Shown here: positions 4,066 to 47,838 of the stretch, piece by piece
Position numbering within the stretch: the first letter of the stretch is position 1
Layout of the letters: every line of letters begins with the position of its first letter
Assembly: GCA_018669975.1 (NCBI GenBank)
Contig: JABHSK010000009.1
Span: 51,127 to 115,126, forward strand
DNA length: 64,000 nt
Source: Candidatus Parcubacteria bacterium
Lineage (GTDB): Bacteria; Patescibacteriota; Patescibacteriia; UBA1558; GWA2-36-10
Reading direction: 5' to 3'
Translations under genes and position numbers: made by a program
The notes under the pieces: model-generated
Databases searched by the model: none
What the model saw: only the letters and a program-made list of their open reading frames with translations
Told to the model about the DNA's origin: nothing

Positions 4066-4071
4066 AGATTT

Positions 4072-4716
4072 TTAAATACCTCTTACTTTTCTATATATAC
4101 TTAATATAATTGGTGGGGCATACATTCTAATAAGTTCTTTCCGGCCACTTCTGAATGGACTGCTCCATTGATTTTGCCAAATCTTAAATTTAGTTTTAAA
4201 TCTTTTCATTTCCTCATCAGAAATTTCACCTTTAAAACCAGCACCTACAACAGTATGGGGAAACGTCCTGTCTCCGGCAGAGCCTACAAATGATGAGCTA
4301 AAAGGTTTAAGGAGGCTCTTAAATGCTTCAGGCGTATATCGCCAATAGTCATGCGGATGGTCATGGATGGGGAAATTCATAACAGAACTAATTATCAATA
4401 CACCGTTAGGCTTAAGTATCCTATAAGCTTCTTCAACAGCTTTATGTGGATATTCAACATGTTCTAAGGTGTCCATAATAATAACCGTACCCACTGACTC
4501 TGATGGTATATCTATTTTATGAAGATTTAAAACCACATCAACACCAATGCCCTGCCTCATATCAGCACCAACAAATTTTTTACCTTTGAAAAATGGCCTT
4601 AGGTCAGCTATCTTCTCTTGACCCTCTACCCTTAAAGATCCAAATTCATAAATCACTTCTTTCATCGGTAATGTCTGTGAGCATATTCCAACAAATTGTT
4701 TAACTAGCTTCCTCAT
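4072..4716 (-). CDS. class I SAM-dependent methyltransferase
   Basis: Methyltransf_11-like motifs (GADMRQGIGVD ... LKPNGVLIIS). Confidence 0.65.
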   Translation of the reverse strand: MRKLVKQFVGICSQTLPMKEVIYEFGSLRVEGQEKIADLRPFFKGKKFVGADMRQGIGVDVVLNLHKIDIPSESVGTVIIMDTLEHVEYPHKAVEEAYRILKPNGVLIISSVMNFPIHDHPHDYWRYTPEAFKSLLKPFSSSFVGSAGDRTFPHTVVGAGFKGEISDEEMKRFKTKFKIWQNQWSSPFRSGRKELIRMYAPPIILSIYRKVRGI

Positions 4717-4733
4717 AGATGTTTTATTAGTTT

Positions 4734-6581: not shown

Positions 6582-6585
6582 ATGA

Positions 6586-7350
6586 TTATTTTTTCTTAGC
6601 TATATAAATAATTTCACTTTGCATCAGATTACTTTTCGTTACAGTGGCTTCATTTAATTGTTCGCAATACCTTTTTGCCTGAACATTAAAGCCAGCGGAT
6701 GCTAACCTGTCTATATAATCACGACCATACAACCTTAAATGATCATACTGCCCAAATAACCTCTCTCTGTCTATTGGCTCAACTATGTTTTTGTCTTCAA
6801 GTGTCCTGTCCCTCTTAGTATCTATCGGCACTTGCAATATTGCCCAGCCACCTGGTTTAAGTACTCGATAAACTTCCTTCATGGCTTTGACATCATCTTC
6901 TACGTGCTCCAAAACATGATTGGCAAACACAACATCAAAAAGATTGTCAGTGAACGGCATTTTGTGAATATCTAATTTTACCTCAGCTAATGGAGAATTA
7001 AGATCGCCGGTTACATACTCAAGGTTAGACATCTTTTTAAATTTTCTATAAAAACATTGTTCTGGGGCCAAATGTAAAACTTTCAATTTATCTCTAAAAA
7101 AATTAGTTTCATTTTTTAAATAAAACCATAATAATCTATGACGCTCCAAAGACAAACAGCCCGGACATAAAGAATTATTTCTATTTTTAGAACCATAAGA
7201 AAAAAACCGACTAAAGCCAGTTTCACATATTGGACAATAGTGTTTATTGCCTTTTAAAAAAATACTAAAAATATTAGAAAAAATAAAACTAAACCTAATT
7301 AGTTGATGCCTTGGTAATTTTTGTATTAAAAATAATTTGGCTCGTCTCAT
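6586..7350 (-). CDS. SAM-dependent methyltransferase with N-terminal zinc-ribbon
   Basis: CPICETGF...CPGC zinc ribbon, then VLHLAPEQ / VVFANHVLEHVEDD / LKPGGWAIL methyltransferase motifs. Confidence 0.65.
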   Translation of the reverse strand: MRRAKLFLIQKLPRHQLIRFSFIFSNIFSIFLKGNKHYCPICETGFSRFFSYGSKNRNNSLCPGCLSLERHRLLWFYLKNETNFFRDKLKVLHLAPEQCFYRKFKKMSNLEYVTGDLNSPLAEVKLDIHKMPFTDNLFDVVFANHVLEHVEDDVKAMKEVYRVLKPGGWAILQVPIDTKRDRTLEDKNIVEPIDRERLFGQYDHLRLYGRDYIDRLASAGFNVQAKRYCEQLNEATVTKSNLMQSEIIYIAKKK

Positions 7351-7366
7351 ATCTCAAGTTTAAAAA

Positions 7367-8671
7367 CTACTCAAACAAAACCATAATACTTACTAATAAT
7401 GGGAAATCTATTTTAACAATTTGCCCATTGGATAATAATATATCAGCAAGTGTTCTTCCCCAGGGATTCAAAAATCCAATCAAAGCAACTACAATTGAAA
7501 TAGCTGTTGTTGTGGTAAATAATAACAAAAAGTTATATGATCTTTTCTTGGTAAACAATAAAAGAAGGAAAAAATAAAGTAGCGGCGTAATAGCAATAAG
7601 CCAACGATAACCAAAGGATGCTCCAGTGTAAACCCTAACCTTTAAAGAATAATATAAAATTATAATTAAAAAACCCACGAAAATTATAAGTGCCTCTAAC
7701 CTAAAATGTGCTTTTCTGTTTCTTAAAATTTTATAAATTGAATAAATTGAAAATAAGAGAATTGGGGTATATAAAAATAATCCATGTGTGCCAAACAATA
7801 TATTTATCAAATAAACCAATGGTCTACTCCTTATTGCTGTGCCGTAGGCAACGCTTACTGGATCCCAGAATTCTGGATGAAATTGAGGTAGCAGAAAATC
7901 ACCAGTAACCTGGTAATTAAGTACCACCTGTAGAATCAACATAGGTAGGGCTGCCAAAATATAGTAAATTATATATTTTTTAGGAAATGTTACTAAACAG
8001 TAAATAAAAAATAAAAATAAAAATGTTAAACCAGTCGGAATATCAATTACCGCTGCCAAAGAAATAAAAAATCCTGATAAACTCAAATATTTTTTATAGT
8101 TATTGGATTTCTTTAATTTTAATTTTAACAAAAAATAAAACCCTATAAACAACAAACTACCCGCGATAGTGTGATTGTTTAAAGAAATAAAAAAAGAAAA
8201 AAATAATGTTCCTAAACCAAAACCTAGTAATAGCCATGTCCTATATTCTTTTCTAATATCTAATAATTTAATAGTTTTGTGGAGGATAAATAATAAGGCG
8301 AAAAAACTACCTCCCACCAAAATTAAATTAATAAAATAAATAGCCCAGCTTTGATCTAACATTCGAATATCAAGATTGAAAACATTGTATAGAACAAAAT
8401 ATACCCCCGCTCCAGCTACTGACAAAACTGGCGGTTTAGAAGAATAATAATTACCATCCCGAAGTATTTTATCATCAGTATTAATCTGATAATCATTGAT
8501 CACTAGTGTGCCTTGCTCAACTATGGCTTGCATAGTCATAAAGCGTGATGAGTTATTGGTACTATCTGAATGGGGTCGTGTAAAAGCTAAGGCAAAGATA
8601 GCAAAAAACATAATCACCAGCAAAAGCTGGGATTTTATAAAATATTGTGCAATGTGTTTTTTGAAACCCAT
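7367..8671 (-). CDS. polytopic integral membrane protein, possible GT-C-fold glycosyltransferase
   Basis: At least 10 hydrophobic helices; sits inside a glycosyltransferase/methyltransferase locus; no recognisable catalytic motif. Confidence 0.35.
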   Translation of the reverse strand: MGFKKHIAQYFIKSQLLLVIMFFAIFALAFTRPHSDSTNNSSRFMTMQAIVEQGTLVINDYQINTDDKILRDGNYYSSKPPVLSVAGAGVYFVLYNVFNLDIRMLDQSWAIYFINLILVGGSFFALLFILHKTIKLLDIRKEYRTWLLLGFGLGTLFFSFFISLNNHTIAGSLLFIGFYFLLKLKLKKSNNYKKYLSLSGFFISLAAVIDIPTGLTFLFLFFIYCLVTFPKKYIIYYILAALPMLILQVVLNYQVTGDFLLPQFHPEFWDPVSVAYGTAIRSRPLVYLINILFGTHGLFLYTPILLFSIYSIYKILRNRKAHFRLEALIIFVGFLIIILYYSLKVRVYTGASFGYRWLIAITPLLYFFLLLLFTKKRSYNFLLLFTTTTAISIVVALIGFLNPWGRTLADILLSNGQIVKIDFPLLVSIMVLFE

Positions 8672-8672
8672 T

Positions 8673-9623
8673 TTAAATGATTTTTTTTATGTAGTGCCTA
8701 GTTTCTTTTTTGTCTGCCTGTCGAACAATAATCTCTCCCAAAAACCCCATTGATATCAACTGGATGCCAATTATGATAAATAATACCCCTAAAAATAACA
8801 ACGGCCTACTACCAATAGCTTGCCCCTGAAACCAAACAATAGTTAAATATAAACACAGACCAGAACCGAGGAGAAAAAACATTAGACCCAAATTACCAAA
8901 GAAATGCGCTGGCTTACGAGCATACTTAGTCAATAAAATAACATTAATTGGATCTAATAAATAATTAGTAAATCTACCTAGTCCAAGATTGCCATATTTT
9001 GATTCGTCAAACTTGCGAGCATGGTGCTTAACTACGACCTCTGTCACCTTAAAGCCTTGTTGGTGAGCTAAAGCTGGCAGGAATCTATGCAGCTCTCCGT
9101 AAACGTTTATATTTTTTACTACCTCTTTTTTATAAATCTTAAAACCACAATTAAAATCATGCAGCTTTATTCCTGTCATTGATGCTACGGTAATATTAAA
9201 TATTTTAGAAGATATTAATTTTACCAAAGGATCCTTGCGATCTTTTTTCCAACCAGAAACCAGATCATAACCCTTATTTATTTTAGCTATTAGATTTGGT
9301 ATCTCATTGGGATCATCTTGCAAGTCAGCATCCATGGTAACAACTAAATCTCCCTGACATTCCTGAAACCCAATAGCTAGGGCTGCGGACTTGCCAAAAT
9401 TACGTCTTAGACTAATTACCTTAATTTGTTGATTGCTTACTTTGAGCTGCTTGAGAATATCTAGAGATCCATCATCAGAACCATCATCTATATAGACTAT
9501 CTCGTATGTTAAATTTAACCCAGTCAAAACATCAACTAATTTATCATTTAATTCCTGCAAAGAACCCTTTTCATTAAAAAGAGGAATTACTATTGATATT
9601 TCTTGATTAATTTTTTCAGACAT
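8673..9623 (-). CDS. GT2 polyprenol-phosphate glycosyltransferase (DPM1/ArnC/GtrB-like) with C-terminal TM helices
   Basis: ISIVIPLFNE, YIDDGSDDGS, TMDADLQDDP (DxD) motifs; two C-terminal TM helices. Confidence 0.85.
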   Translation of the reverse strand: MSEKINQEISIVIPLFNEKGSLQELNDKLVDVLTGLNLTYEIVYIDDGSDDGSLDILKQLKVSNQQIKVISLRRNFGKSAALAIGFQECQGDLVVTMDADLQDDPNEIPNLIAKINKGYDLVSGWKKDRKDPLVKLISSKIFNITVASMTGIKLHDFNCGFKIYKKEVVKNINVYGELHRFLPALAHQQGFKVTEVVVKHHARKFDESKYGNLGLGRFTNYLLDPINVILLTKYARKPAHFFGNLGLMFFLLGSGLCLYLTIVWFQGQAIGSRPLLFLGVLFIIIGIQLISMGFLGEIIVRQADKKETRHYIKKII

Positions 9624-9625
9624 GA

Positions 9626-10162
9626 TTAAAACTTATTTTTTTTGATTTTAAATATATACCCCAAATAATTAAAGAATGGATGAAAAAACAGAGCCATAGC
9701 CACGGCTGATAATAACATATGCCAAGGCAAGTATACATAAAACGACATAAATATGATAGTGCCTATAATCCAATCTATTTGATCAAATGGAAACCAATAT
9801 ACCCCTGGTTTAATTTGGCGGCGGCGTTTAAAAAAACTCCTAATTGCATCCCCAAACAAAGCACCGAATCCCATAAGAAAGCCTAGCAAAAAAACATTGG
9901 TCTGACTATAATCGATTATCAACCAATCTGTCATACTGCCGGTTATCGTAGTCTGCCAATATAAAAAAACCATACACGCCAAAATACCAAAAAAGAAGCC
10001 ACGAATTGTCTTGTGTGGTCCAAAGATAGGCTGATCTTTATATCTTTTATTAAAATCTATCGGATAATTAAGCCACGGCACCCATTTAAATAAAACCGGC
10101 GCCATGTTGGCTACTCCGGCTGGTAGAAAAAACCAAAATATTTTTACTAAATAAATAAACAT
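9626..10162 (-). CDS. small CTP-transferase-1 family membrane protein (CdsA/CarS-like, DUF46-sized, 178 aa)
   Basis: GPHKTIRGF resembles the SPxKTxEGF motif; C-terminal SFFKRRRQIKPG...FDQID resembles a degenerate CdsA/CarS signature; 5 TM helices. Confidence 0.4.
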   Translation of the reverse strand: MFIYLVKIFWFFLPAGVANMAPVLFKWVPWLNYPIDFNKRYKDQPIFGPHKTIRGFFFGILACMVFLYWQTTITGSMTDWLIIDYSQTNVFLLGFLMGFGALFGDAIRSFFKRRRQIKPGVYWFPFDQIDWIIGTIIFMSFYVYLPWHMLLSAVAMALFFHPFFNYLGYIFKIKKNKF

Positions 10163-19630: not shown

Positions 19631-19661
19631 AATATGAATGTTTGCTAAATTGTTTATCCGT

Positions 19662-19736
<75 letters not shown>

Positions 19737-19743
19737 AATAAAA

Positions 19744-19771
19744 ACGAGCTAAAAAACAGCTCGATTTTTTT
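19744..19771 (+). terminator. intrinsic terminator after tRNA-Cys
   Basis: cgagctaaaaaacagctcg hairpin followed by a T7 run. Confidence 0.5.
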
Positions 19772-19807
19772 ATATAAAAAAACAGCCCAAAAGCTGTTAA
19801 AAAATCT

Positions 19808-19893
19808 GGTACCGGCGATCGGACTTGAACCGATACGGCCTTACGGCCACAGGATTTTAAGTCCTGCGTGTCTACCAATTCCACCACGCCGGC
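19808..19893 (-). tRNA. tRNA-Leu (anticodon TAA), long variable arm
   Basis: Reverse complement GCCGGCGTGGTGGAATTGGTAGACACGCAGGACTTAAAATCCTG...GGTTCAAGTCCGATCGCCGGTACCA; hairpin plus T-run terminator at 19773-19806 on the minus strand. Confidence 0.85.
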
Positions 19894-19897
19894 ATAC

Positions 19898-19974
19898 TGG
19901 AGCGAGTGACCGGGCTCGAACCGGCGACCTTTTCCTTGGCAAGGAAATGTTCTAGCCAACTGAACTACACTCGC
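19898..19974 (-). tRNA. tRNA-Gly (anticodon GCC)
   Basis: Reverse complement GCGAGTGTAGTTCAGTTGGCTAGAACATTTCCTTGCCAAGGAAAAGGTCGCCGGTTCGAGCCCGGTCACTCGCTCCA. Confidence 0.85.
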
Positions 19975-20083
19975 TTGATAAAACATAACTATTATACAAC
20001 AAAATAATAAAAAGTCAACCACTGATACTCTTGGTTTTGAACCTTAAAAATGCTATTATAAAGGAAGATTAAATTACTCAAAT

Positions 20084-37800: not shown

Positions 37801-39426
37801 ATGCCTGAAAAATCTCAAAATAAACATAATAAACTATTCACTTGGATTAAACAACACAAATTATTGCTACTAATAATAGTCGTGTTTTTGATTCTAAACA
37901 ACCTTTCTTATATCATAGGTTTTTGGCAAAGCAGTCAAAGCTCTGAACTAATATACAGAGTTACTCCACTTATGAACAGAGCCGATCATTTTGTCTACCT
38001 ATCACACATAGAACAAGGTAAAGAGGGTCATCTAATGACTAAGTTGCTCTATAATCACCTGGCTGAAAACAATGTTATGTTCTCACCACACTGGTATATA
38101 ATTGGGCAGTTTAGCAATATAACAAATATCAGTGTAGTCACTAGTTATTTTATTTGGCGAATATTATTATTAATTCCGTTTCTATTTTTACTATGGTGGT
38201 TTATCAAAAAAATATTCTCTAGTTATAAAAAATCAATTTTGGCCATGCTGACGATATTGTTTGGCAATGGTATAGGAACCATCTTTATAAATATATTTCC
38301 AGAAAGCACTCTAAAACCGACCAATTTGTGGATGCCTGAAAGTATTACATTCTTATCACTCAATCAGACGCCGTTATTTGTCTTGGCGCTGATATTGATC
38401 CTGTTGGTGTTTATATCATTTATAGAAAGTGTAAAAAGTAAAAAAAATTATTTAATACTAATCTGCTGTTCACTAAACCTGCTACTAACTCTAATACACA
38501 CCTATGATATGGTGATCACCCTAGCTGTTTTAACTGGTTGGTCAGCTTTTAAATTTTATCAAACTAGGCATAAAAAAATAATCCTCTACTTAGCTTATTT
38601 ATACTTTGTATCTGGAACGGGTGCGCTCTACTATGCCTGGCTATTAAGGCGTGACTTAGCGATGATTCAATGGAACGCTCAAAACCTGTGCATCTCTGGT
38701 CCATTAACTGAATATCTATGGGGAATGGGACTTTTATTCGTATTCTCAATAGCTGGTATAGTGTACATTATCAAAAAAAGATTATTCCAAAACGATTACC
38801 TAAATCTAATCACTGTCTGGGCCGCTATTGGTTGGGTGTTAATTTATCTACCAGTACATTTTAATCGTCGCTTATCTAATGGTTGGCACATGGCCCTGGC
38901 TATTACTTCTTTGTATTTTTTCCTTTGGCTACACAAAAAATTTCCTGTGGTGCTGCGGGGCGCATTAATTACTGTAGTGGGCTTCCTGGTGTTCTTTGAT
39001 ACTATGATATTTTTATCCGTAGACTCATCAGTAACACGCAGTAATGAGTCACATTATTTTTTTCATAGCCAGACTAAGCAAGAAATATATCAACAAATAC
39101 AAGCCACCACCGATGAACACGATGTTATACTGACCCGTGGCATAGATGGTAATCACTTGCCTGGTTTTACTGCTAGAAAAGTATACACTGGGCACCTAAT
39201 GGGCACCTGGGAAGCCGTTCTAAAAAATAGAGAAGTTGAAAAATTATGGTCAAACCCTAATGATATATCAGAATGGTTAGTAGACAAAAATATTGCCTAT
39301 ATTTTTGCTAGTCGTTTTTATATCCCTGAATTTGATAAAATAAAATGGCTCGCTAAAGAAAAATATATCGAGCCAATCATAGATAATGATGAATTTATAC
39401 TTTATAAAATATTGTTAGAAGAATAA
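37801..39426 (+). CDS. large polytopic membrane protein, unknown function (possible GT-C-like)
   Basis: 541 aa, at least 11 TM helices, C-terminal soluble domain; TGn-TAAAAT extended -10 at about 37783-37794. Confidence 0.35.
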   Translation: MPEKSQNKHNKLFTWIKQHKLLLLIIVVFLILNNLSYIIGFWQSSQSSELIYRVTPLMNRADHFVYLSHIEQGKEGHLMTKLLYNHLAENNVMFSPHWYIIGQFSNITNISVVTSYFIWRILLLIPFLFLLWWFIKKIFSSYKKSILAMLTILFGNGIGTIFINIFPESTLKPTNLWMPESITFLSLNQTPLFVLALILILLVFISFIESVKSKKNYLILICCSLNLLLTLIHTYDMVITLAVLTGWSAFKFYQTRHKKIILYLAYLYFVSGTGALYYAWLLRRDLAMIQWNAQNLCISGPLTEYLWGMGLLFVFSIAGIVYIIKKRLFQNDYLNLITVWAAIGWVLIYLPVHFNRRLSNGWHMALAITSLYFFLWLHKKFPVVLRGALITVVGFLVFFDTMIFLSVDSSVTRSNESHYFFHSQTKQEIYQQIQATTDEHDVILTRGIDGNHLPGFTARKVYTGHLMGTWEAVLKNREVEKLWSNPNDISEWLVDKNIAYIFASRFYIPEFDKIKWLAKEKYIEPIIDNDEFILYKILLEE

Positions 39427-40150: not shown

Positions 40151-41755
40151 ATGCCAAGAAAAAAACGTACCACTTTATTAAACAAAATAACTGCTCTCAA
40201 ATTAGACTATGTGTTGCTTTTTGTTTTAATGTCACTATACTATGGACGATTACAGTGGAATAATTTCATCGGTGATCCAGATGGCTTTTACCATGCTAAA
40301 ATAACCACCTTTCTAGGCCAGGGCACTTTACTTAAAAGCTTACCCTGGATGCAGTTTACCACCCTAAAAGAACACTATACTGATCATCATCTACTATATC
40401 ATTTGTTACTTTTGCCTTTTACCTATATAACCGACAATGCTCTATTGGCTGTAAAGATAGCTACAGTTTTGTTTGCTGTAATAATGATTTTAGTCTTTTA
40501 TTGGCTACTCAAACAATTCAAGATTGTTTGGCCATTTGTCTTTGCTTTGTTATTTATAAGCCTGGAGGCGGTCAGCTTTAGATTGGCGCTAGTTAAGGCT
40601 AATTCTTTATCATTATTAGTCATTTGGTTATTGATATATGCCATGTTCCGTCAAAAAACATGGCTAATGGCTTTGCTGGGTTTTGTTTTTGTATGGCTTT
40701 ATGGTGGTTGGGCACTATCCATTATTATTTTCTTTATTTATTTCTTTAGTGAAAAAATATATGAACGCCTTAATACAAATAAATTAAAATTATTTTGGTC
40801 CAAAGTAGTCCATACTTTTAATTTTAAAAAGGGAAGCGCTAAAAACCATCGTATATTTCTAGGATTAATTCTGGGACTATTAGCTGGACTAGTTATTAAT
40901 CCCTATTGGCCACATAATTTATATTTTTATTATCAACAAATAATACAAATTGGCGTTATCAACCTTGGTGGTCAACTACAAGTAGGCGGTGAATGGTATG
41001 GCACATCTTTTATGCATATTATTTCTTCCTTGCCGCATATTTTTGTTCTAGCTAGTCTTTTGATTTTAATGTTATTTATAAACTACCAAAAAATTAGTAA
41101 AAAAACTTGGTTTAGTTTTTTGTTAAGTTTTGTCTTCTTGTTATTGACTGTAAAATCACGTCGTTATATAGAATACTTCTCTCCTTTCTTACTATTATTC
41201 ACGGCCTGTGCTTTCACTGATGTTAAATCTATGGTTAATTGGAAAAAAATAAAAAAATTCTGGAGTAATAATCCAACTTATTTAAAGGTGTACTTAGGTT
41301 TGGCCGGCACACTGTTTACCATATTGATACTACCGGTTATTTTCACTAAAACCTGGGATGTGGCTATCCCACAGAATTGGACCCTAGAAAAATTTCGCCC
41401 TGGCTTACTCTGGCTAAAACAAAACACACCAGCGGACACACTAATTTTCCATGGAGATTGGGATGAATGGCCAATACTCTTTTATCATAATGATCACAAC
41501 CGCTACATAGTTGGCTTAGACCCTACTTTTATGTACAACTTTGATGCTAATCTACAGCAAGAGCACACTGATATCACTGCTGGAAAAATAAAAGGGATAG
41601 TTTCAGAAAAAATAAAAAAAGACTTTGGTGCTGACTATGTTTTTATAGAAAAAAAAGAACATGCCGCGTTTGGAAACAACTTAGACATGGACTCCTTTGC
41701 TACGCTTGTTTATGAAGACGAAGAAGTGGCTATTTATCACTTGATAAGTCCCTAA
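40151..41755 (+). CDS. large polytopic membrane protein, unknown function
   Basis: 534 aa, about 12 TM helices, C-terminal soluble domain. Confidence 0.35.
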   Translation: MPRKKRTTLLNKITALKLDYVLLFVLMSLYYGRLQWNNFIGDPDGFYHAKITTFLGQGTLLKSLPWMQFTTLKEHYTDHHLLYHLLLLPFTYITDNALLAVKIATVLFAVIMILVFYWLLKQFKIVWPFVFALLFISLEAVSFRLALVKANSLSLLVIWLLIYAMFRQKTWLMALLGFVFVWLYGGWALSIIIFFIYFFSEKIYERLNTNKLKLFWSKVVHTFNFKKGSAKNHRIFLGLILGLLAGLVINPYWPHNLYFYYQQIIQIGVINLGGQLQVGGEWYGTSFMHIISSLPHIFVLASLLILMLFINYQKISKKTWFSFLLSFVFLLLTVKSRRYIEYFSPFLLLFTACAFTDVKSMVNWKKIKKFWSNNPTYLKVYLGLAGTLFTILILPVIFTKTWDVAIPQNWTLEKFRPGLLWLKQNTPADTLIFHGDWDEWPILFYHNDHNRYIVGLDPTFMYNFDANLQQEHTDITAGKIKGIVSEKIKKDFGADYVFIEKKEHAAFGNNLDMDSFATLVYEDEEVAIYHLISP

Positions 41756-43631
41756 GCTCTGTTTCTTCAGTCAATTCTAATTTAGGTACAACGTCCTTGA
41801 TTAGGCTAATTGCATTAATTCCCTGATAAGAAAAAATTTGATAAGAGTTTATATCTGAACTGAGATAGTAATAAAAATGTACTAACTCATTCTCTGGCCA
41901 ATCTTTTTCTGAAAATACACCATAGTCTAGGGGCATATCAAAATCATAATTTCGCCCATAAAAACGCACCAGATAACTATTGTCCTCGGTGTGATTTTTT
42001 TGTAAAGTAAGCTCCAGTACCCCATCAGTAAAATTTGCCCCTATTAAAAAATCATCTTCCGCAAACCCTATTGGTTTCTCGTCGGTGCGATATAATTCTA
42101 TATTATCCTGAGTGGCATGTTGCTTGTTTTGCCAAAGTAATAAATTATTCCAAGCCTTAATTAAAGAATAATCGTTTAATACCTGTTGCCAATTATTTGG
42201 AATATCATCTCTCTTGTATTCTAAAAAAGAAGCTATATTTTTTTCTACAATAGTGGCTAAAAATTGAGAATTGTCCACCAGTATATAATCTACTGGCGGT
42301 AACTCAAACTCAAAACCACAAAACTGCCCACAACCAAAGTATGAGCCAGCCAAAGTGTAAACCTCTTGTCTGGTGCTAGCTGGCGCAATAAAGGTTGACT
42401 CCGCCACCAAGCTAGCCTCTGGTGGTATCTGAGCAAAAAATTCTTGCTTAGCTTGAACTAATTCCCTTGGATACTTTTTAAATAATATATCTTTAGCTGG
42501 CGATAAAAAGATTGAAAAATAAACTATTGTGACTACAAAAATTAATGTAACAAAACCAAAATTTTTATAAATATGTTTACTGCCCGAAAATCTTTCCTGT
42601 AGAAGAACCCTTTTAAAAGCAAAAATTAGGGCTATAAAAATCCCCGGCATAAATAATAGAGTATAGTGCGTACTATAAGCCATGAAATTAAAACCGCTAC
42701 CACTTAAAAGAATCTGTAAAAAAGGTAAAAAGGCCAAAGAGAGGTATCTAGATTTCAAAAATGGCAGAAATAAGACTGGCAACATAATTACTGCAATGCT
42801 GAGAAAATTATTTATATTTATTAAATGCCAAATAAACTGTATTGGATGAGTTAACCAACTAATAATGATACCTAAAATACTTTCTCCCCCCAGCCAACCA
42901 TAATAAGCAAAAAACTTATAGCTACCCGCTATAGAAAAATAACTAATAATCTTAAGTGCAGATAAAAAATAAACAACTGGTAATAACAAACTAAACAGTT
43001 TCCATTTTAAACTACGTTTATGCAGTATTGCCAACCAAGTGAATGCTAACAGTATTAAGCTAATATCTTCTCTGACAAGTAGTGCTAAAATAAAAAATAA
43101 CACAAATAATTTAAAACTTCTCTGCTGATAAAAATAAAATACCCAGAAAATAAAAAATACAGCTATCGGCAACAGGTGAAATTCAAAGACATTGGCGCTG
43201 TGCACAAAAGGATTAAGTAGCCACATTAAAGCAACAATCAATGACACTACTTTGTTTTTAACGATATTTCTACTAATTAAATATATAGGCCAAGCGCTCA
43301 ATCCCAAAATAACGCTCTGTAATATTAGTAATGTTTCTGGCGTCTGCCAAAACCAATAAAAAGGCAGTAATAAAAAAATGATTGGTGTAAAATGGTCAGC
43401 TAAATAAATGTTGAAATTAACCGTTCCGGCGAACCAATCACCGTGCAGGGTATTAAAAAAGACTTGATTAAAGATTGCTAAATCATAGGCGTTGTAGCTA
43501 AAATTATAGTACTTCTTAAGGCTTAAAAAGGCCATTAGGAGCACGTATAGCACTGTGGCAATACCCAACACCAAAGCACTGTGTTTATTAGCAAAATTGC
43601 TTATTTTTGAGCTAAAATGTGACATATCCAT
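41730..43631 (-). CDS. large polytopic membrane protein, DUF2079-like (putative GT-C-fold glycosyltransferase)
   Basis: 633 aa; N-terminal YDLAIFNQ ... LADHFTPIIFLLLPFYWFW resembles DUF2079 conserved block; C-terminal extracytoplasmic domain. Confidence 0.4.
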   Translation of the reverse strand: MDMSHFSSKISNFANKHSALVLGIATVLYVLLMAFLSLKKYYNFSYNAYDLAIFNQVFFNTLHGDWFAGTVNFNIYLADHFTPIIFLLLPFYWFWQTPETLLILQSVILGLSAWPIYLISRNIVKNKVVSLIVALMWLLNPFVHSANVFEFHLLPIAVFFIFWVFYFYQQRSFKLFVLFFILALLVREDISLILLAFTWLAILHKRSLKWKLFSLLLPVVYFLSALKIISYFSIAGSYKFFAYYGWLGGESILGIIISWLTHPIQFIWHLININNFLSIAVIMLPVLFLPFLKSRYLSLAFLPFLQILLSGSGFNFMAYSTHYTLLFMPGIFIALIFAFKRVLLQERFSGSKHIYKNFGFVTLIFVVTIVYFSIFLSPAKDILFKKYPRELVQAKQEFFAQIPPEASLVAESTFIAPASTRQEVYTLAGSYFGCGQFCGFEFELPPVDYILVDNSQFLATIVEKNIASFLEYKRDDIPNNWQQVLNDYSLIKAWNNLLLWQNKQHATQDNIELYRTDEKPIGFAEDDFLIGANFTDGVLELTLQKNHTEDNSYLVRFYGRNYDFDMPLDYGVFSEKDWPENELVHFYYYLSSDINSYQIFSYQGINAISLIKDVVPKLELTEETELRDLSSDK

Positions 43632-43780: not shown

Positions 43781-44503
43781 ATGAAGACGTCACAATTGTT
43801 AATCTCGTTACTCTTGGTAGCAGTTATGAGCGCTATCCTGAGTGGCTGTGGTGCCACAAAACAATGGTATGGTTCATCACCTAATGGAACCTACGATCAT
43901 CGAGGCCCGCGCCTCGATACCAACAACTCACCCAAGGTCGAAAATATCATCGACAACCAAAGCAAAGAAATGCTTTTTGTCGACATCGAAGGACATGACC
44001 TGAGTTTCAGTGAGCATTTGGTTCAGGTCAACCCTGGTACCAAGCTGACTCGCAAGGGTCGTAGCTATCGTCGCCTCAAGGTGACTGTTCGCTGGATGGG
44101 CACTGGCTTCCGCAACACCATCGGTCACACCGAAGAGGAGATGAAATTCCTGATGCCCGGCCTATACTCCGGTGACCCTATTGTCATCACCGATGCCATG
44201 CTTCGAGGTCAGATGCCTATGCGTGGCATCATCATCTGCCAGGGTGACCCCACCCTATATCAAGATGATCGAGGTCATCGCTTCAAGATGAACAACGGTG
44301 ACAAAATTGAAGTCAACATGTCTTCTGGTCCAATTGAGTTCAAATTCAGATCACTGCGAGATCCCTCTCGCTTTGGCAGCAGGACTTATCCTGATTGCAT
44401 TGATCTCGAAACTGAACAATATGAAGTCGTTGGACCCGATGGCAAAAAGAAGCGTTATGACTTCACTGTCATTGTCGATGAATCCTGGCGTCATCGCTGG
44501 TAG
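43781..44503 (+). CDS. lipoprotein of unknown function, compositionally foreign (GC about 50%)
   Basis: AGGAGG SD; signal peptide plus lipobox ILSGCG; codon usage rich in CGC/CGT/CTG/GGC/ATC unlike neighbours; no family recognised. Confidence 0.6.
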   Translation: MKTSQLLISLLLVAVMSAILSGCGATKQWYGSSPNGTYDHRGPRLDTNNSPKVENIIDNQSKEMLFVDIEGHDLSFSEHLVQVNPGTKLTRKGRSYRRLKVTVRWMGTGFRNTIGHTEEEMKFLMPGLYSGDPIVITDAMLRGQMPMRGIIICQGDPTLYQDDRGHRFKMNNGDKIEVNMSSGPIEFKFRSLRDPSRFGSRTYPDCIDLETEQYEVVGPDGKKKRYDFTVIVDESWRHRW

Positions 44504-44525: not shown

Positions 44526-44559
44526 GCGCCGCAGCTCGAAAGCTGCGGCGCGTTTTTTT
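44526..44559. terminator. strong GC-rich intrinsic terminator (11-bp stem, T8), shared with the convergent pilin-like operon
   Basis: gcgccgcagctcgaaagctgcggcgcgttttttt. Confidence 0.7.
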
Positions 44560-44572
44560 AATAAAAATATAT

Positions 44573-44956
44573 TTATGGATTAAGCGGAGTATTACCAGTT
44601 GAAGCTTTTAGTAGGCTATCAAAAACAAATCTAACAATAGCATACGAAGTAACAACTATAACTAAACCTATGGTTGCATTCTTAATTGATTCCTTGGCTT
44701 CTTTTATTCTATCTGCATTACCTTGAGAAGTCATCCATTTGAAACCACCTAAAATAATCAAAACAACAAAGAGTGTCCCTAAGACAGCGAGCAAACCTCT
44801 AACGATAGATGCAATTACATCTGTAATTGGTCTTTCAATTAATCCCGTTTGACCAGCTATTTGATCTAGTCCTCCAGCAGACTCTAAAGGACCCGCTGAA
44901 GCAACCAACGGAGCTAAAGCAAACAATAAAATAAACTTGTATTTTAAATTTTTCAT
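44573..44956 (-). CDS. small secreted two-helix protein, paralog 1 of 4 (pilin-like, VirB2/TrbC-type architecture)
   Basis: Signal peptide, hydrophobic helix, conserved GGFKWMTSQGNADRIKEAK core, second hydrophobic helix. Confidence 0.45.
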   Translation of the reverse strand: MKNLKYKFILLFALAPLVASAGPLESAGGLDQIAGQTGLIERPITDVIASIVRGLLAVLGTLFVVLIILGGFKWMTSQGNADRIKEAKESIKNATIGLVIVVTSYAIVRFVFDSLLKASTGNTPLNP

Positions 44957-45043
44957 TATATTTAGAAAGTAAAGCCTAGTGGAGGCTAAGCTCTAGTAGG
45001 TCATAATTCAATGACCTACTATAGTCTAGACTACATAGGTCTA

Positions 45044-45388
45044 TTAGATAGTTTCGTTTTGTAAAGATGTTAGTACGAAACGTGATATTGCGTAAGCAGT
45101 CAAGATGATGACCAAACCAACTATACCTGCTCCAATAAGCTTTTTAGCTTCATCAACTTTATCAGTGTTGCCTTGAGAAGTCATCCATTTGAAACCACCC
45201 ATAAGGATGATCAAAGTAGCTAAAATTCCCAAGAAACCCAAGACGATGTTTACAACAGAAGATGCAGTGTCACCTAGTTCTTTAGTACCCAGGTTTGAAT
45301 TCTTCATTGAATTAACACCGTATACGTCAAGCTGAGCTGATGCTGCCATCGGCATGAAAAGTAATGCGCTAGTGATAAGTTTGTTCAT
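45044..45388 (-). CDS. small secreted two-helix protein, paralog 2 of 4 (pilin-like); has its own promoter and strong SD
   Basis: GGFKWMTSQGNTDKVDEAK core; GGGGGTG SD 7 nt upstream. Confidence 0.45.
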   Translation of the reverse strand: MNKLITSALLFMPMAASAQLDVYGVNSMKNSNLGTKELGDTASSVVNIVLGFLGILATLIILMGGFKWMTSQGNTDKVDEAKKLIGAGIVGLVIILTAYAISRFVLTSLQNETI

Positions 45389-45427
45389 TGTTTCACCCCC
45401 TTTCTAAAAAATAAAAGTATTGTTTAA

Positions 45428-45456
45428 ATTATAAAACAAAATTGACTTTTTTACAA
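45428..45456 (-). promoter_or_regulatory. sigma70-like promoter on the minus strand (TTGTAA, 17 nt spacer, TATAAT) internal to the paralog array, driving paralog 2
   Basis: Reverse complement reads ttgtaaaaaagtcaattttgttttataat; -35 at 45451-45456, -10 at 45428-45433. Confidence 0.5.
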
Positions 45457-45460
45457 TAGA

Positions 45461-45793
45461 TTAGCTAGTGCCAGCCAAAGTACTGAAAAAGTATCTTATT
45501 ATAGCATAGCTCATGAAAATAGCCACTAGTCCGAAAATAGCCCAAACTATAGTGTCTTTTCCTCTTTTTACTTTGTCAGTATTACCAGCTGAGGTCATCC
45601 AAGTGACGCCTCCCCAAACCAACATTAGTAAAGCCACAGCACCAACTATGCCTAATATACCTTTGACAGCAAAACCTATAACCGTAGGTATATCTTCCGC
45701 TGGCAATGGATTGGGCAACTCGGCCGCCTTAACCAACAAAGGCGCAAAGAATAATAATGTAGCCAAAAATGTTTTATGTTTGTTTTTAATCAT
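45461..45793 (-). CDS. small secreted two-helix protein, paralog 3 of 4 (pilin-like)
   Basis: GGVTWMTSAGNTDKVKRGK core; 25-nt gap to paralog 4. Confidence 0.45.
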   Translation of the reverse strand: MIKNKHKTFLATLLFFAPLLVKAAELPNPLPAEDIPTVIGFAVKGILGIVGAVALLMLVWGGVTWMTSAGNTDKVKRGKDTIVWAIFGLVAIFMSYAIIRYFFSTLAGTS

Positions 45794-45818
45794 ATCTATA
45801 TATTAATTTAATATTACC

Positions 45819-46472
45819 TTAAAGTGACGCAGCATTTAATGTGCAAAGATTAGTGTTGCTTCCTGGACACAAGCCAGCTTCAGTTACAGGACCTACTGGA
45901 ATAGCGCCCATTTCACTAAAATCAAAACAAGACCAATTTCCTGAATCATCCAAAAGATTCTTTAATTGACATTTTGTTACGCAGGTTTCGTTGTGGCTAG
46001 ACTTATCACCACTAAAGGTGTCCGTGCCAGTACAAACATAGTTTGTTTCTGTTTCATTACAACGACTATCTTTTGCTTTCTCAGTACAAGAAGCTGCTAT
46101 TTTATATCTTGAATTTGTAACACCCAAAATATCATTAACAAAAAATGATGTTAATAAATAACTACTAAAAGCTATAAACAAAGCAATGAGGGTATTAATC
46201 ATAATCTGCTGACCACGCTTTACTCTGTCAGCATTACCACCAGAAACCAACCATTGAATACCTCCCCAAATAAAATATAGTAGCGCTATTGCTCCCATGC
46301 CACCGAGCAACATTTGAATTAAATAGGTAAAACCTAAAGTGATATCTTCTAGGCTACAATTTCCATCTTTAATACAGGTCTCTGGAAGTTTATCTAAAAA
46401 TCCTTGAGCAAAGCCAACATTTGGCGCCAAGATGACAATTAATAAAATTGAAAAAAATAAAATTTTATTCAT
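45819..46472 (-). CDS. paralog 4 of 4: pilin-like N-terminal module fused to a 110-aa Cys-rich C-terminal domain
   Basis: GGIQWLVSGGNADRVKRGQ core; C-terminal region with 12 Cys (CTEKAKDSRCNETETNYVCTG...CVTKCQ...CFDF...CPGSNTNLC). Confidence 0.45.
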   Translation of the reverse strand: MNKILFFSILLIVILAPNVGFAQGFLDKLPETCIKDGNCSLEDITLGFTYLIQMLLGGMGAIALLYFIWGGIQWLVSGGNADRVKRGQQIMINTLIALFIAFSSYLLTSFFVNDILGVTNSRYKIAASCTEKAKDSRCNETETNYVCTGTDTFSGDKSSHNETCVTKCQLKNLLDDSGNWSCFDFSEMGAIPVGPVTEAGLCPGSNTNLCTLNAASL

Positions 46473-47838
46473 TTGTTTTTGTGTATGTTTTATTAATACG
46501 TTCTACAAATAGTTTGAGCGGTGTGCCCGCTAAATCAAAGGTATATTCTCCAGATACAAGCCCATCTATAATTTCAGCTGTATATTGTTCGGCTAAATCT
46601 ATATTATAACCCTCATACCAGTTATCAGCTGTTAAAACCTGAGAGGCAAAAACCTTTAAATCGGTGTCTTCCATCTGCTCTGCTATCAGAGATCTTAACG
46701 CAGTTGGTTTTTTATTAGCATTTAAATAAACCCTGACAATTTCCTTACCAGAAGCATTCTGAATAAAATCCCAGGCTGAAGGAGCATTGATAGATTTCTT
46801 AGCTACTACTGTTATCCAATAATCTGTATAATATTTTGTCCCTTCGGCTCCTCTAGTTTGAGGAAAGTTAGTAATACCCCAATCAAATACCACACCCCTA
46901 TCTCTTAGCTCATCCGCGTGGTAACTATAGCCGAAAAAATAGGCCAGCCTACCATTGGCAAACATCTCAAAAGCATTTGGCAAATCATCGCTCCAGCTAT
47001 AACTCAGCCTACCAGGTCTAGCAAAATCAGTATAAAAATTAAGCACTTGTGTCAGCCTATCTCTTGATCCGCCATCTTTAATTGGACTAAACCATTCTCC
47101 TTTCATGTTAACATCGCTCTGCAATAATAAACTAGATAAAATATCAAAAAAACGAGGTATGTTATCAGTTCCGCCTAGGGAAACAGCTGAGTACAGCACC
47201 CTATTATCCTCTGTAACCCTGGTTATCTTTGGTACCTGCTCAATTAAATCATGAAAATCTCTCATTGGCTCTGGAATACTAGATTTGTCCAATAGGCTAG
47301 AATTATAAAAAGTCACTAGGGTTTCCAGAGAAAATGGTAAACCGTATATTTTATCATCCAATACTACATCATCATATACTACTGGCACATACCTTGTTTT
47401 AACATCCTGGGGAGATAGACTTTTAAAAGATTTGAGCGTCAGTGTTCGCTCTGGCTTAATAGAGCCCTTCATTTCCCAAATTGGCACGTTAATACTTGGT
47501 GGTATTGGCACTAAACGATGCTGATATTCTTTAAGCCAGGTAACTGGAATAGCGAAAAGGTCTGGACCACGATCATCTGCCCAGGCTTCTAATAATTTTT
47601 GCTCGTACTCCTCGTACCTAAAATTACGATAAGTTATCTTAATTGTTGGATGCTTAGCTTGATATGTATTGATTAAGGGTGCTACTTGAGCAGCTGTATC
47701 CCAAACACCCCAGTATTCTAAATATACTGGTCTATATTCTACTCCTTTTTTACAAGTCATTCCCTGACAACCAAATCCAGCAGAAACAACAAAAACTGCT
47801 AATATTAGAAGTGTGAAAAGTTTTAAATGTCTTTTCAT
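46465..47838 (-). CDS. extracellular solute-binding lipoprotein (ABC-transporter family 1 SBP-like)
   Basis: Signal peptide with Cys (AGFGCQG), 457 aa periplasmic-binding-protein-like; overlaps the paralog 4 start by 8 nt. Confidence 0.55.
   Translation of the reverse strand: MKRHLKLFTLLILAVFVVSAGFGCQGMTCKKGVEYRPVYLEYWGVWDTAAQVAPLINTYQAKHPTIKITYRNFRYEEYEQKLLEAWADDRGPDLFAIPVTWLKEYQHRLVPIPPSINVPIWEMKGSIKPERTLTLKSFKSLSPQDVKTRYVPVVYDDVVLDDKIYGLPFSLETLVTFYNSSLLDKSSIPEPMRDFHDLIEQVPKITRVTEDNRVLYSAVSLGGTDNIPRFFDILSSLLLQSDVNMKGEWFSPIKDGGSRDRLTQVLNFYTDFARPGRLSYSWSDDLPNAFEMFANGRLAYFFGYSYHADELRDRGVVFDWGITNFPQTRGAEGTKYYTDYWITVVAKKSINAPSAWDFIQNASGKEIVRVYLNANKKPTALRSLIAEQMEDTDLKVFASQVLTADNWYEGYNIDLAEQYTAEIIDGLVSGEYTFDLAGTPLKLFVERINKTYTKTNE

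What the first reader, a model, noticed from the sequence alone, without database searches (positions are those of the whole stretch)
44573..46472. Tandem array of four divergent paralogous small secreted two-helix proteins (pilin-like) sharing a GGxxWMTSxGNxD core
Seen directly: four consecutive minus-strand ORFs of 127, 114, 110 and 217 aa. Each has a signal peptide, a hydrophobic helix ending in (I/L/V)(L/M/W)GG(F/V/I)(K/T/Q)W(M/L)(T/V)S(Q/A/G)GN(A/T)D(R/K)(I/V)(K/D), a short charged loop, and a second hydrophobic helix (..SYAI.RF.). The mature N-terminal segments and C-termini are highly divergent, while the core is conserved. This is the pattern expected for diversified structural subunits. 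Established knowledge: this topology is that of type-IV-secretion / conjugative pilins of the VirB2/TrbC type. Inference: these may form a surface filament or contact structure, with paralog 2 as the major subunit and the others as minor or tip variants. No T4SS ATPase (VirB4/VirD4) is in the window, so the assembly machinery is not evident here.
Basis: partly seen in the sequence, partly recalled or inferred. Interest (0 to 1): 0.8.

Follow-up and report, generated by a model that had tools for sequence, protein, structure and literature searches.

The report
Patescibacterial VirB2-like pilin gene array
Four neighbouring genes in an ultra-small (Patescibacteria/CPR) bacterium encode diverged copies of a type-IV-secretion pilin-like protein; arrays like this are already described as widespread in this group and essential in one cultured member, so this is an ordinary example.

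Summary
Four consecutive minus-strand genes (127, 114, 110 and 217 aa) each encode a signal peptide plus a two-helix hairpin with the GGxxW(M/L)xSxGNxD core.

All four pass the Pfam gathering score for PF18895 (T4SS_pilin), and one also passes TrbC/VirB2. The source is a "Candidatus Parcubacteria" genome.

Quiñonero-Coronel et al. 2025 report 441 such VirB2 arrays of 2–11 genes in Patescibacteria. Wang et al. 2023 showed that a pilin array is essential in Southlakia epibionticum.

What I add:
- The locus is chromosomal and syntenic across many related species. Each paralog has a 1:1 positional orthologue, so the duplications are old.
- P2 is the most conserved copy and has its own promoter-like site and strong ribosome-binding site.
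- The first, long paralog carries a conserved Cys-rich outward-facing domain.
- A solute-binding-protein gene overlaps that first gene by 8 nt, and sits directly upstream of a pilin gene in 51 of 71 related loci. I found no published mention of this.
- A VirD4-type coupling ATPase and a fifth pilin lie elsewhere, apparently in the same genome.

VirB4 and actual filament formation remain untested.

The parts
45819..46472 (-). P4: first gene of the array. A long VirB2-like pilin (217 aa) made of signal peptide, helical hairpin and a Cys-rich C-terminal ectodomain (10 Cys: 2 in the mature N-terminus, 8 after residue 128).
   Evidence: PF18895 31.5 bits vs cut-off 26.6. Orthologues of 201-310 aa keep Cys columns C33, C39, C129, C138, C164, C168 and C182. 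The AF2 model has pLDDT 70.9, with hairpin helices 41-76 and 81-117 and a small alpha/beta domain at 130-217.
45461..45793 (-). P3: short VirB2-like pilin (110 aa, no Cys).
   Evidence: PF18895 47.4 bits and PF04956 TrbC 28.6 bits, both above their cut-offs. AF2 pLDDT 84.5 with helices 5-21, 35-66 and 72-106. NCBI names it hypothetical protein HOB10_05300, Candidatus Parcubacteria bacterium.
45044..45388 (-). P2: short VirB2-like pilin (114 aa, no Cys) and candidate major subunit.
   Evidence: PF18895 36.5 bits. It is the most conserved paralog across species, 63-74% identity at about full coverage. It is preceded by a promoter-like site and a GGGGGTG ribosome-binding site.
44573..44956 (-). 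P1: short VirB2-like pilin (127 aa, no Cys), last gene of the array.
   Evidence: PF18895 43 bits. Positional orthologues are 40-61% identical.
46465..47838 (-). Solute-binding-protein family gene (457 aa, lipobox-like N-terminus). Its stop overlaps the P4 start by 8 nt (ATGAATAA). It is an associated gene; a functional link is inferred only.
   Evidence: SBP_bac_8 71.2 bits and SBP_bac_1 69.5 bits. The junction was read. A homologue lies directly upstream of a pilin gene in 51 of 71 related loci. No ABC permease or ATPase is in the window.
45428..45456 (-). Promoter-like element (TTGTAA-17-TATAAT, 10 of 12 matches) in the P3-P2 spacer.
   Evidence: This is a consensus match only; the number of such sites in the region is no higher than in shuffled sequence.
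44957..45043 (-). P2-P1 intergenic region that folds into two stable RNA hairpins, a possible attenuator or partial terminator after P2.
   Evidence: MFE -28 kcal/mol, z = -4.19, 0 of 200 shuffles fold as well. A terminator-like hit lies at 44973-44987.
44526..44551 (.). G+C-rich 11-bp-stem hairpin with T-tracts on both strands. It is a bidirectional terminator that closes the array and the convergent gene.
   Evidence: 11 pairs, 9 of them G-C, on both strands.
43781..44503 (+). Convergent gene for a 240-aa lipoprotein-like protein (…AILSGC…) with no family match. Similar convergent lipoprotein-like genes follow the array in related loci. Whether it belongs to the system is uncertain.
   Evidence: No Pfam or NCBIfam hit. 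Sequence homologues occur in 5 loci, and positional analogues with lipobox-like N-termini appear in the loci inspected.

Best explanation
The four genes are a chromosomal, vertically inherited array of VirB2/TrbC-superfamily pilin-like proteins (Pfam PF18895). [quoted passage not shown]

Shown here:
- Each product is a Sec-signal-peptide protein whose mature part is a hairpin of two long hydrophobic helices. They are joined by the conserved S-x-G-N-x-D-K/R turn and a basic stretch.
- The duplications are ancient, because each paralog has its own positional orthologue in related species.
- The first paralog carries a conserved Cys-rich C-terminal domain.
- A VirD4-type coupling ATPase with a fifth pilin gene lies at another locus, apparently in the same genome.

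Inferred, by analogy with VirB2/TraA pilins and from the positive-inside rule:
- After signal-peptide cleavage the hairpin sits in the membrane with both termini outside and the basic loop inside. All 10 cysteines of P4 fall in the two outside segments, which fits this topology.
- T4SS machinery encoded elsewhere extracts the subunits and stacks them into a pilus-like tube or stalk at the contact with a host cell.
- P2 is the bulk subunit, P1 and P3 are minor subunits, and P4 is a specialised subunit that displays a disulfide-bonded ectodomain, for example for adhesion or at the tip.

The function of such arrays is unknown. In Southlakia the array is essential for epibiotic growth.
For: PF18895 is above its gathering score for all four proteins, and TrbC is above for P3. 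An in-register but weak HH-suite match aligns helix 1 with Agrobacterium VirB2 (prob 40%, E 3e-4). The AF2 model of P3 has pLDDT 84.5 and shows a signal helix plus hairpin 35-66/72-106. The source is a Candidatus Parcubacteria bacterium.

The same SBP - long pilin - short pilins - convergent gene - DUF2079 synteny occurs in L006, L008, L010 and many of the 80 species-representative loci. Twelve relatives show 1:1 positional orthologues. The Cys columns of P4 are conserved.

The T4CP-like ATPase P0210 lies on a contig of 844,504 bp and in samples ERZ4200950 and ERZ4200964. Those samples also carry the array at 100% identity, and a 111-aa PF18895 gene sits 2.5 kb downstream of the ATPase.

Literature: 441 VirB2 arrays of 2-11 genes with mean identity 25% (PMC12102498); an essential pilin series in the Southlakia T4SS cluster (PMC10633639); review in PMC12857230.
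Confidence: 0.75

Rival explanations
1. The hairpins are membrane anchors or channel components rather than a filament. The PF18895 hairpin stays in the cytoplasmic membrane, as part of the monoderm-type T4SS translocon or as a generic anchor. The long members simply display Cys-rich ectodomains on the cell surface as adhesins.
For: Many family members carry large C-terminal Cys-rich extensions of up to 647 aa and 38 Cys, with the hairpin at the N-terminus in 90 of 105 domains. Some proteins contain 2-17 hairpin repeats in one chain, which is hard to reconcile with a simple stackable pilin. Monoderm T4SSs normally have no pilus, and none has been observed in Patescibacteria (PMC12857230). The array is not next to any T4SS gene.
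Against: Short, Cys-free copies with nothing to display are the majority (357 of 485 ORFs) and are the best conserved (P2). The profile relationship is to pilins. The multi-repeat proteins may be gene-calling artefacts of arrays and were not examined.
Confidence: 0.15
2. The array is a variation cassette. The paralogs are interchangeable alternative major subunits, kept to vary the surface for evading phage or host defences or for switching host strains, as proposed for the VirB2 paralogs of Bartonella and Anaplasma.
For: The exposed N- and C-terminal segments diverge strongly while the core is conserved. Copy number varies from 1 to 16 between species. The idea is raised in PMC12102498.
Against: Each of the four paralogs has a 1:1 positional orthologue in the same order in 12 related species. 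Between-species identity for P2 (63-74%) is higher than between-paralog identity (26-50%). So the copies are old and individually maintained, not recently duplicated and exchanged. The four genes differ in expression signals and in architecture (P4 with an ectodomain; P2 with its own promoter-like site and ribosome-binding site). No repeats or recombination features were sought.
Confidence: 0.07
3. These are small membrane proteins unrelated to T4SS (holin-like, YidC-associated or similar), and the pilin profile match is convergent hydrophobic similarity.
For: Low-complexity hydrophobic hairpins can give spurious profile hits. The fold searches are non-specific.
Against: Four independent matches exceed the curated cut-off, with conserved polar motif positions (G-G-x-x-W, S-x-G-N-x-D) and not only hydrophobic ones. 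No holin or other small-membrane-protein family scores comparably, even at E up to 1. There is no phage context. Members of the same family sit inside the experimentally essential T4SS cluster in Southlakia (PMC10633639, PMC12102498).
Confidence: 0.03

Closest known systems
VirB2-like pilin arrays of Patescibacteria. Examples are the 441 arrays of Quiñonero-Coronel et al. 2025 (PMC12102498) and the essential pilin series in the Southlakia epibionticum ML1 T4SS cluster SEML1_0006-0019 (Wang et al. 2023, PMC10633639).
   Same: It is the same Pfam family (PF18895) in the same phylum. The genes are in tandem and structurally conserved but diverged in sequence (26-50% here; published mean 25%, maximum 54%). 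The location is chromosomal and there is no relaxase context.
   Different: Here the array is not in or near a T4SS cluster; the paper reports that pilins lie away from virB4 in about 40% of assemblies. It is translationally coupled to an SBP-family gene, and its first member carries a Cys-rich ectodomain. I found neither feature mentioned in those papers.
VirB2 / TrbC / TraA conjugative pilins of Gram-negative T4SSs (Pfam PF04956; for example Agrobacterium Ti VirB2).
   Same: A signal peptide is followed by a two-helix hydrophobic hairpin with a short basic loop. P3 passes the TrbC cut-off, and helix 1 aligns in register with Ti VirB2.
   Different: Sequence similarity is marginal. The host is a monoderm. 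There are no adjacent virB3 or virB4 genes, no evidence of cyclisation or a TraF-type peptidase, and no demonstrated pilus. Several diverged copies replace the single major pilin plus VirB5.
Mbov_0395 / ICE_MMCAP2_0565 pilin-like conjugal transfer proteins of Mycoplasma ICEs (NCBIfam NF045849).
   Same: Both are small hairpin proteins of a wall-less or monoderm T4SS. P1-P3 match across nearly the whole 80-position profile (E 3e-9 to 4e-8).
   Different: Scores of 32.7-36.5 bits are below the curated cut-off of 40, and P4 has no hit. The window's genes are not on an integrative conjugative element.
Tandem VirB2 paralogs in Bartonella and Anaplasma T4SS loci (cited in PMC12102498).
   Same: Both have multiple diverged virB2 copies in tandem, with variable exposed segments.
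   Different: Those copies belong to Gram-negative effector-translocating T4SSs and are thought to serve antigenic variation. Here the paralogs are old, ordered and individually conserved across species.

Membership tests
Pfam PF18895 T4SS_pilin | Whole-protein score at or above the curated gathering score (26.6 bits) | tested here: met
   43.0, 36.5, 47.4 and 31.5 bits for P1-P4. The precomputed labels on the source contig agree.
Pfam PF18895 T4SS_pilin | Signal peptide followed by a hairpin of two hydrophobic helices joined by a short polar or basic turn | tested here: met
   The AF2 model of P3 has helices 5-21, 35-66 and 72-106 at pLDDT 84.5. The P4 hairpin is 41-76 and 81-117.
Patescibacterial VirB2 arrays (PMC12102498) | Two or more pilin genes in tandem (or separated by one gene) in a patescibacterial genome | tested here: met
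   Four adjacent genes have spacers of 25-87 nt. The source is a Candidatus Parcubacteria bacterium.
Patescibacterial VirB2 arrays (PMC12102498) | Low identity between members of one array (published mean 25%, maximum 54%) | tested here: met
   26-50% over aligned cores, or 25-39% over the shorter protein.
Patescibacterial VirB2 arrays (PMC12102498) | The genome also encodes the patescibacterial VirB4 (plus TrsD, VirB3 and VirB6) | not tested
   No VirB4 probe could be obtained. The window and 80 related loci contain none. Only a VirD4-type T4CP was placed, apparently in the same genome.
TrbC/VirB2 conjugative pilins (Pfam PF04956) | Score at or above the gathering score (27.9 bits) | tested here: inconclusive
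   P3 scores 28.6 (passes). P1 scores 22.7, P2 20.4 and P4 12.4 (all below). hhalign of the family alignment against Ti VirB2 gives prob 40%, E 3e-4.
TrbC/VirB2 conjugative pilins (Pfam PF04956) | Fold matching solved conjugative pilins | tested here: inconclusive
TrbC/VirB2 conjugative pilins (Pfam PF04956) | Encoded within a T4SS operon next to virB3/virB4 | tested here: not met
   There is no T4SS gene in the 64-kb window or within 10 kb in syntenic relatives.
TrbC/VirB2 conjugative pilins (Pfam PF04956) | Polymerises into an extracellular pilus | not testable with these tools
   This needs microscopy or proteomics. It has not been shown for any patescibacterium (PMC12857230).
NCBIfam NF045849 Mbov_0395 pilin-like conjugal transfer protein | Score at or above the cut-off (40 bits) | tested here: not met
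   36.5, 35.8 and 32.7 bits for P1-P3, and no hit for P4.
Type IV pilus (T4P) pilins | Class III signal peptide cleaved by a prepilin peptidase (G|F/M-T-L-x-E) and a single N-terminal hydrophobic helix | tested here: not met
   The sequences show AxA-type Sec signal peptides and two hydrophobic helices, with no G-F-T-L-I-E motif. No T4P family appears among the Pfam hits at E up to 1.
Holins / phage small membrane proteins | A match to a holin family and a phage lysis-cassette context | tested here: not met
   No holin family appears at E up to 1. The neighbours are housekeeping genes.

The most novel reading that the evidence does not exclude
The SBP-family lipoprotein gene that overlaps the first pilin gene is a working partner of the array, not a passenger. 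In this reading the SBP docks on the Cys-rich ectodomain of the first pilin, or on the pilus or stalk. There it captures a host-derived sugar-like solute, making the T4SS-pilin apparatus an uptake device instead of an export device in these auxotrophic epibionts. This would be a new pairing of an ABC-type binding protein with a T4SS pilin module.
Probability: 0.12. Interest if true: 0.7.

Novelty: new member of a known kind. Interest (0 to 1): 0.27.

Why it matters
As a pilin array it adds little. The family is in Pfam, has about 90,000 cluster representatives, and its arrays are published.

It is useful as a clean example of the arrangement in which the array lies away from the T4SS genes. 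It shows that the paralogs are old and individually conserved, which argues for division of labour between subunits (major, minor, ectodomain-bearing) and against simple antigenic variation.

The conserved coupling of an orphan solute-binding-protein gene to a Cys-rich first pilin is a testable lead. It bears on the open question of what the essential patescibacterial T4SS actually does. Reviewers have speculated that it takes up molecules from the host.

Tried and rejected

2. A profile search of PDB sequences found no relative.

3. tblastn of P3 against 72,556 plasmids found no relative; the single hit had E 0.9.

4. The first locus scan with the 32-sequence alignment failed because no stretch was conserved enough. 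It was repeated with P1+P2.

5. The hunt for VirB4 in the 80 related loci failed. The only T4SS-type ATPase is a VirD4-like T4CP. The roughly 980-aa ORF next to dnaA-proximal arrays is a class A PBP.

A member on an 844,504-bp contig was found instead.

7. The holin, T4P pilin and Mycoplasma-ICE pilin assignments were considered and rejected (see the membership tests).

8. The promoter scan as a whole is not enriched over shuffles (11 sites vs 12.4 expected). The P2 promoter-like site is therefore only suggestive.
Full report
**1. The observation**

One search lists four consecutive minus-strand ORFs at exactly the stated coordinates:
- P1, 44573-44956, 127 aa
- P2, 45044-45388, 114 aa
- P3, 45461-45793, 110 aa
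- P4, 45819-46472, 217 aa

Their sequences each begin with a Sec-type signal peptide ending in an AxA-like site. Two long hydrophobic stretches follow. The alignment confirms the shared core (I/L/V)(L/M/W)GG(F/V/I)(K/T/Q)W(M/L)(T/V)S(Q/A/G)GN(A/T)D(R/K)(I/V) and the second-helix SYAI-like motif, with 12 invariant columns. Pairwise identity is 26-50% over the aligned cores. A local HMM built from the family finds only these four copies in the window.

**2. What the proteins are**

All four pass the curated gathering score of Pfam PF18895 "T4SS_pilin": 43.0, 36.5, 47.4 and 31.5 bits against 26.6. P3 also passes PF04956 TrbC/VirB2 (28.6 against 27.9), and the other three score below that cut-off. 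NCBIfam gives sub-threshold matches to the Mycoplasma ICE pilin-like family NF045849.

An AlphaFold2 model of P3, built on 32 homologues, is confident (pLDDT 84.5). It shows a signal helix (5-21) and a hairpin of two long helices (35-66 and 72-106), with the conserved T-S-x-G-N at the turn. An HH-suite comparison of the family alignment with Agrobacterium Ti VirB2 aligns helix 1 in register, but weakly (prob 40%, E 3e-4).

Several tests gave nothing useful:
- A PDB sequence-profile search finds nothing.
- A tblastn search of plasmids finds nothing.

So fold alone cannot decide, and membership rests on the profile matches.

**3. Source and context**

P3 is identical to [quoted passage not shown] and lies on an 844,504-bp JGI contig. 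I scanned every ORF of 100 aa or more in the window against Pfam. The neighbours are housekeeping genes:
- rpoB, rpoC, ftsK and recA
- polysaccharide and glycogen enzymes
- polA, nusA and a class A PBP
- a proton-pumping (H+) pyrophosphatase

There is no VirB4, VirB6 or VirD4, no relaxase, no ABC permease and no phage or plasmid gene. The array is therefore chromosomal and not on an obvious mobile element.

**4. Relatives**

Homologues on long contigs show the same local order: NTP-transferase, SBP-family gene, long pilin, 3-4 short pilins, a convergent unknown gene, then DUF2079. These are L006 (a Nomurabacteria MAG with an 842-kb contig), L008 and L010.

A scan of one genome per species found 331 relatives, and the best 80 loci were fetched. 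All are patescibacterial by content, though many carry wrong titles such as "uncultured Gammaproteobacteria". A local HMM finds 1-16 pilin ORFs per locus, most often 4-7.

Each window paralog has its best match at the same ordinal position in 12 related loci:
- P4-like first, 39-47% identity
- P3-like second, 46-70%
- P2-like third, 63-74%
- P1-like fourth, 40-61%

For P2, identity between species exceeds identity between paralogs. The duplications therefore predate these species, and each copy is individually maintained. One caveat applies: most loci were retrieved by similarity to P1/P2, which favours P2. In L006 and L008, which were retrieved through P3, P2 scores 63-67% and P3 52-70%.

**5. 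Anatomy and expression signals**

P4's start overlaps the stop of the upstream SBP-family gene by 8 nt (ATGAATAA). The P4-P3 spacer is 25 nt. The P3-P2 spacer (72 nt) holds the best promoter-like match in the region (TTGTAA-17-TATAAT) and the only strong Shine-Dalgarno sequence (AAGGGGGTGA).

The P2-P1 spacer (87 nt) folds into two stable hairpins (-28 kcal/mol, z -4.19). A G+C-rich bidirectional terminator at 44526-44551 closes the array. These signals, together with its conservation, fit P2 as the most abundant subunit. That is an inference from consensus matches, and promoter-like sites overall are not enriched over shuffled sequence.

**6. The long first paralog**

P4 has 10 cysteines and P1-P3 have none. 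Two lie in the mature N-terminal segment and eight lie beyond residue 128. Orthologues of 201-310 aa keep these Cys columns.

With the basic loop inside (positive-inside rule, as in VirB2 and TraA), both termini face outward. All the cysteines would then be extracytoplasmic, as expected for disulfides. The AF2 model is moderate (pLDDT 70.9) and gives a small alpha/beta domain at 130-217. That domain has no recognisable structural match.

Across the 80 loci, 357 of 485 pilin ORFs have at most one Cys and 94 have four or more. Some reach 647 aa or 38 Cys. The hairpin is N-terminal in 90 of 105 domains, and most cysteines lie on the C-terminal side.

**7. The SBP coupling (not part of the original finding)**

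The 457-aa protein encoded at 46465-47838 matches SBP_bac_8 and SBP_bac_1 well above their cut-offs. It has only faint similarity to sugar-binding SBPs and a lipobox-like N-terminus.

A homologue lies directly upstream of a pilin gene, on the same strand, in 51 of the 71 loci that have enough upstream sequence. In 17 of these the genes overlap, and in 26 the gap is 30 nt or less. The pairing persists in Falkowbacteria-type loci, where about 4 kb of other genes split the array.

The pilin that follows the SBP is typically long and Cys-rich (median 214 aa, 8 Cys). SBP presence and long Cys-rich pilins co-occur: 39/12 against 4/16, Fisher p 2e-5. This is not corrected for shared ancestry, and the sample is biased towards one subfamily. 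The 2025 survey and the Southlakia paper contain no occurrence of "solute-binding", and the latter none of "substrate-binding". A function for this link is speculation.

**8. Assembly machinery**

An 820-aa ATPase near a second pilin pair in a relative (L022) carries TrwB_AAD_bind above its cut-off, plus DUF87. Its family (DUF8128 + T4SS-DNA_transf + TrwB_AAD_bind) is very widespread in Patescibacteria, with 6,943 hits. It corresponds to the VirD4-type coupling protein that the 2025 survey found in 2,918 of 3,035 genomes, usually far from virB4.

In the Nomurabacteria relative this gene lies about 430 kb from the array on the same contig. A member of the family, P0210 (819 aa), occurs on a contig of 844,504 bp. 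It also occurs in samples ERZ4200950 and ERZ4200964, which carry the window's array at 100% identity. A fifth, solitary PF18895 gene (111 aa, 40.2 bits) lies 2.5 kb downstream of it.

VirB4 itself could not be probed.

**9. Comparison with what is known**

Quiñonero-Coronel et al. 2025 (PMC12102498) searched 3,035 patescibacterial genomes with PF18895 and PF04956:
- They found VirB2-like pilins in 1,948 VirB4-containing assemblies.
- The pilin lay near virB4 in 1,135 of these assemblies.
- They found 441 arrays of 2-11 pilin genes, with mean identity 25% and maximum 54%.

Wang et al. 2023 (PMC10633639) found a series of predicted pilins inside the Southlakia T4SS cluster to be essential for epibiotic growth. 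The 2025 FEMS review (PMC12857230) calls these systems unique among monoderms for their potential to make pili, and speculates on uptake of molecules from the host.

The window's array meets the published description in family, phylum, tandem arrangement and divergence. It belongs to the roughly 40% of cases in which the pilin genes are away from virB4. The family has 89,520 representatives at 50% clustering with E <= 0.001.

**10. Verdict**

- Most likely mechanism (confidence about 0.75 for identity, lower for the filament): Sec-exported hairpin subunits with both termini outside are assembled by a T4SS encoded elsewhere into a host-contact pilus or stalk. P2 would be the bulk subunit and P4 would display a disulfide-bonded ectodomain.
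- Main rival: the hairpins are membrane anchors or channel parts and do not form a filament.
- Antigenic variation is disfavoured by the ordered 1:1 orthology.

The modestly new points are the old, ordered paralog set, the conserved Cys-rich first pilin, and its coupling to an orphan SBP gene.

Noticed in passing
window 46465-47838 (-); related loci L011-L090: An SBP_bac_1/8-family, lipobox-like protein gene overlaps the first pilin gene by 8 nt. A homologue lies directly upstream of a pilin gene in 51 of 71 related loci, and it co-occurs with long Cys-rich pilins (Fisher p 2e-5, not corrected for phylogeny). There is no ABC permease or ATPase in the window. The T4SS papers I read do not mention it.
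   Followed up: partly
window 43781-44503 (+): A convergent 240-aa lipoprotein-like gene (…SAILSGC…) has no family match. Convergent genes with lipobox-like N-termini occupy the same position after the array in most loci inspected, even where sequence similarity is lost.
   Followed up: partly
L096 10001-12460 and 14974-15309 (ENA ERZ4200950 NODE_216); also L097: At another locus, apparently in the same genome, the gene order is MurJ, LepA, two small unknown ORFs, an 819-aa VirD4-type coupling ATPase (DUF8128 + T4SS-DNA_transf + TrwB_AAD_bind), a 195-aa ORF, DnaX, and a fifth solitary PF18895 pilin (111 aa). The MurJ-to-DnaX part of this context is conserved in relatives (L091, L092). A PF18895 gene after DnaX is recorded only in L096 and L097.
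   Followed up: partly
window 37801-39426 (+) and 40151-41755 (+): Two paralogous-looking proteins of about 535 aa have no Pfam or NCBIfam match. Homologues of the second one occur near the pilin array in 25 of 80 related loci, often beside DUF2079 (window 41730-43631), which is weakly similar to a cell-surface glycopolymer formation family.
   Followed up: no
L033 8909-16440; L066 5194-16967: These arrays hold 15 and 16 PF18895-like ORFs, more than the 2-11 range reported in PMC12102498. The ORF calls were mechanical and were not curated.
   Followed up: no
proteins P0211-P0250: Many database proteins contain 2-17 pilin-hairpin repeats in one chain, for example P0213 with 1,775 aa and 17 stretches. 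They may be real poly-pilin fusions, or arrays merged by gene calling under the wrong genetic code.
   Followed up: no
L012, L014, L016, L019, L034, L039-L041, L071 and others: Many species-representative MAGs that carry this patescibacterial locus are titled 'uncultured Gammaproteobacteria bacterium' (TPA assemblies), and one is titled 'Vicinamibacterales'. The record titles are unreliable for taxonomy.
   Followed up: no
L038, L053, L061 (about 3800-9700): In Falkowbacteria-like relatives the pilin array lies next to dnaA, dnaN and a class A PBP gene, so it is origin-proximal. This fits the origin-proximal T4SS placement noted in PMC12102498. The window's array is not in such a context.
   Followed up: partly
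window 44957-45043 (-): The P2-P1 intergenic RNA folds into two stable hairpins (-28 kcal/mol, z -4.19). This may be an attenuator that sets the P2:P1 ratio.
   Followed up: partly
window 19662-19974 and 814-885: Four tRNA genes are present. Three form a cluster at 19662-19974 on both strands, and a mechanical 122-aa ORF (19654-20022) there is spurious.
   Followed up: no
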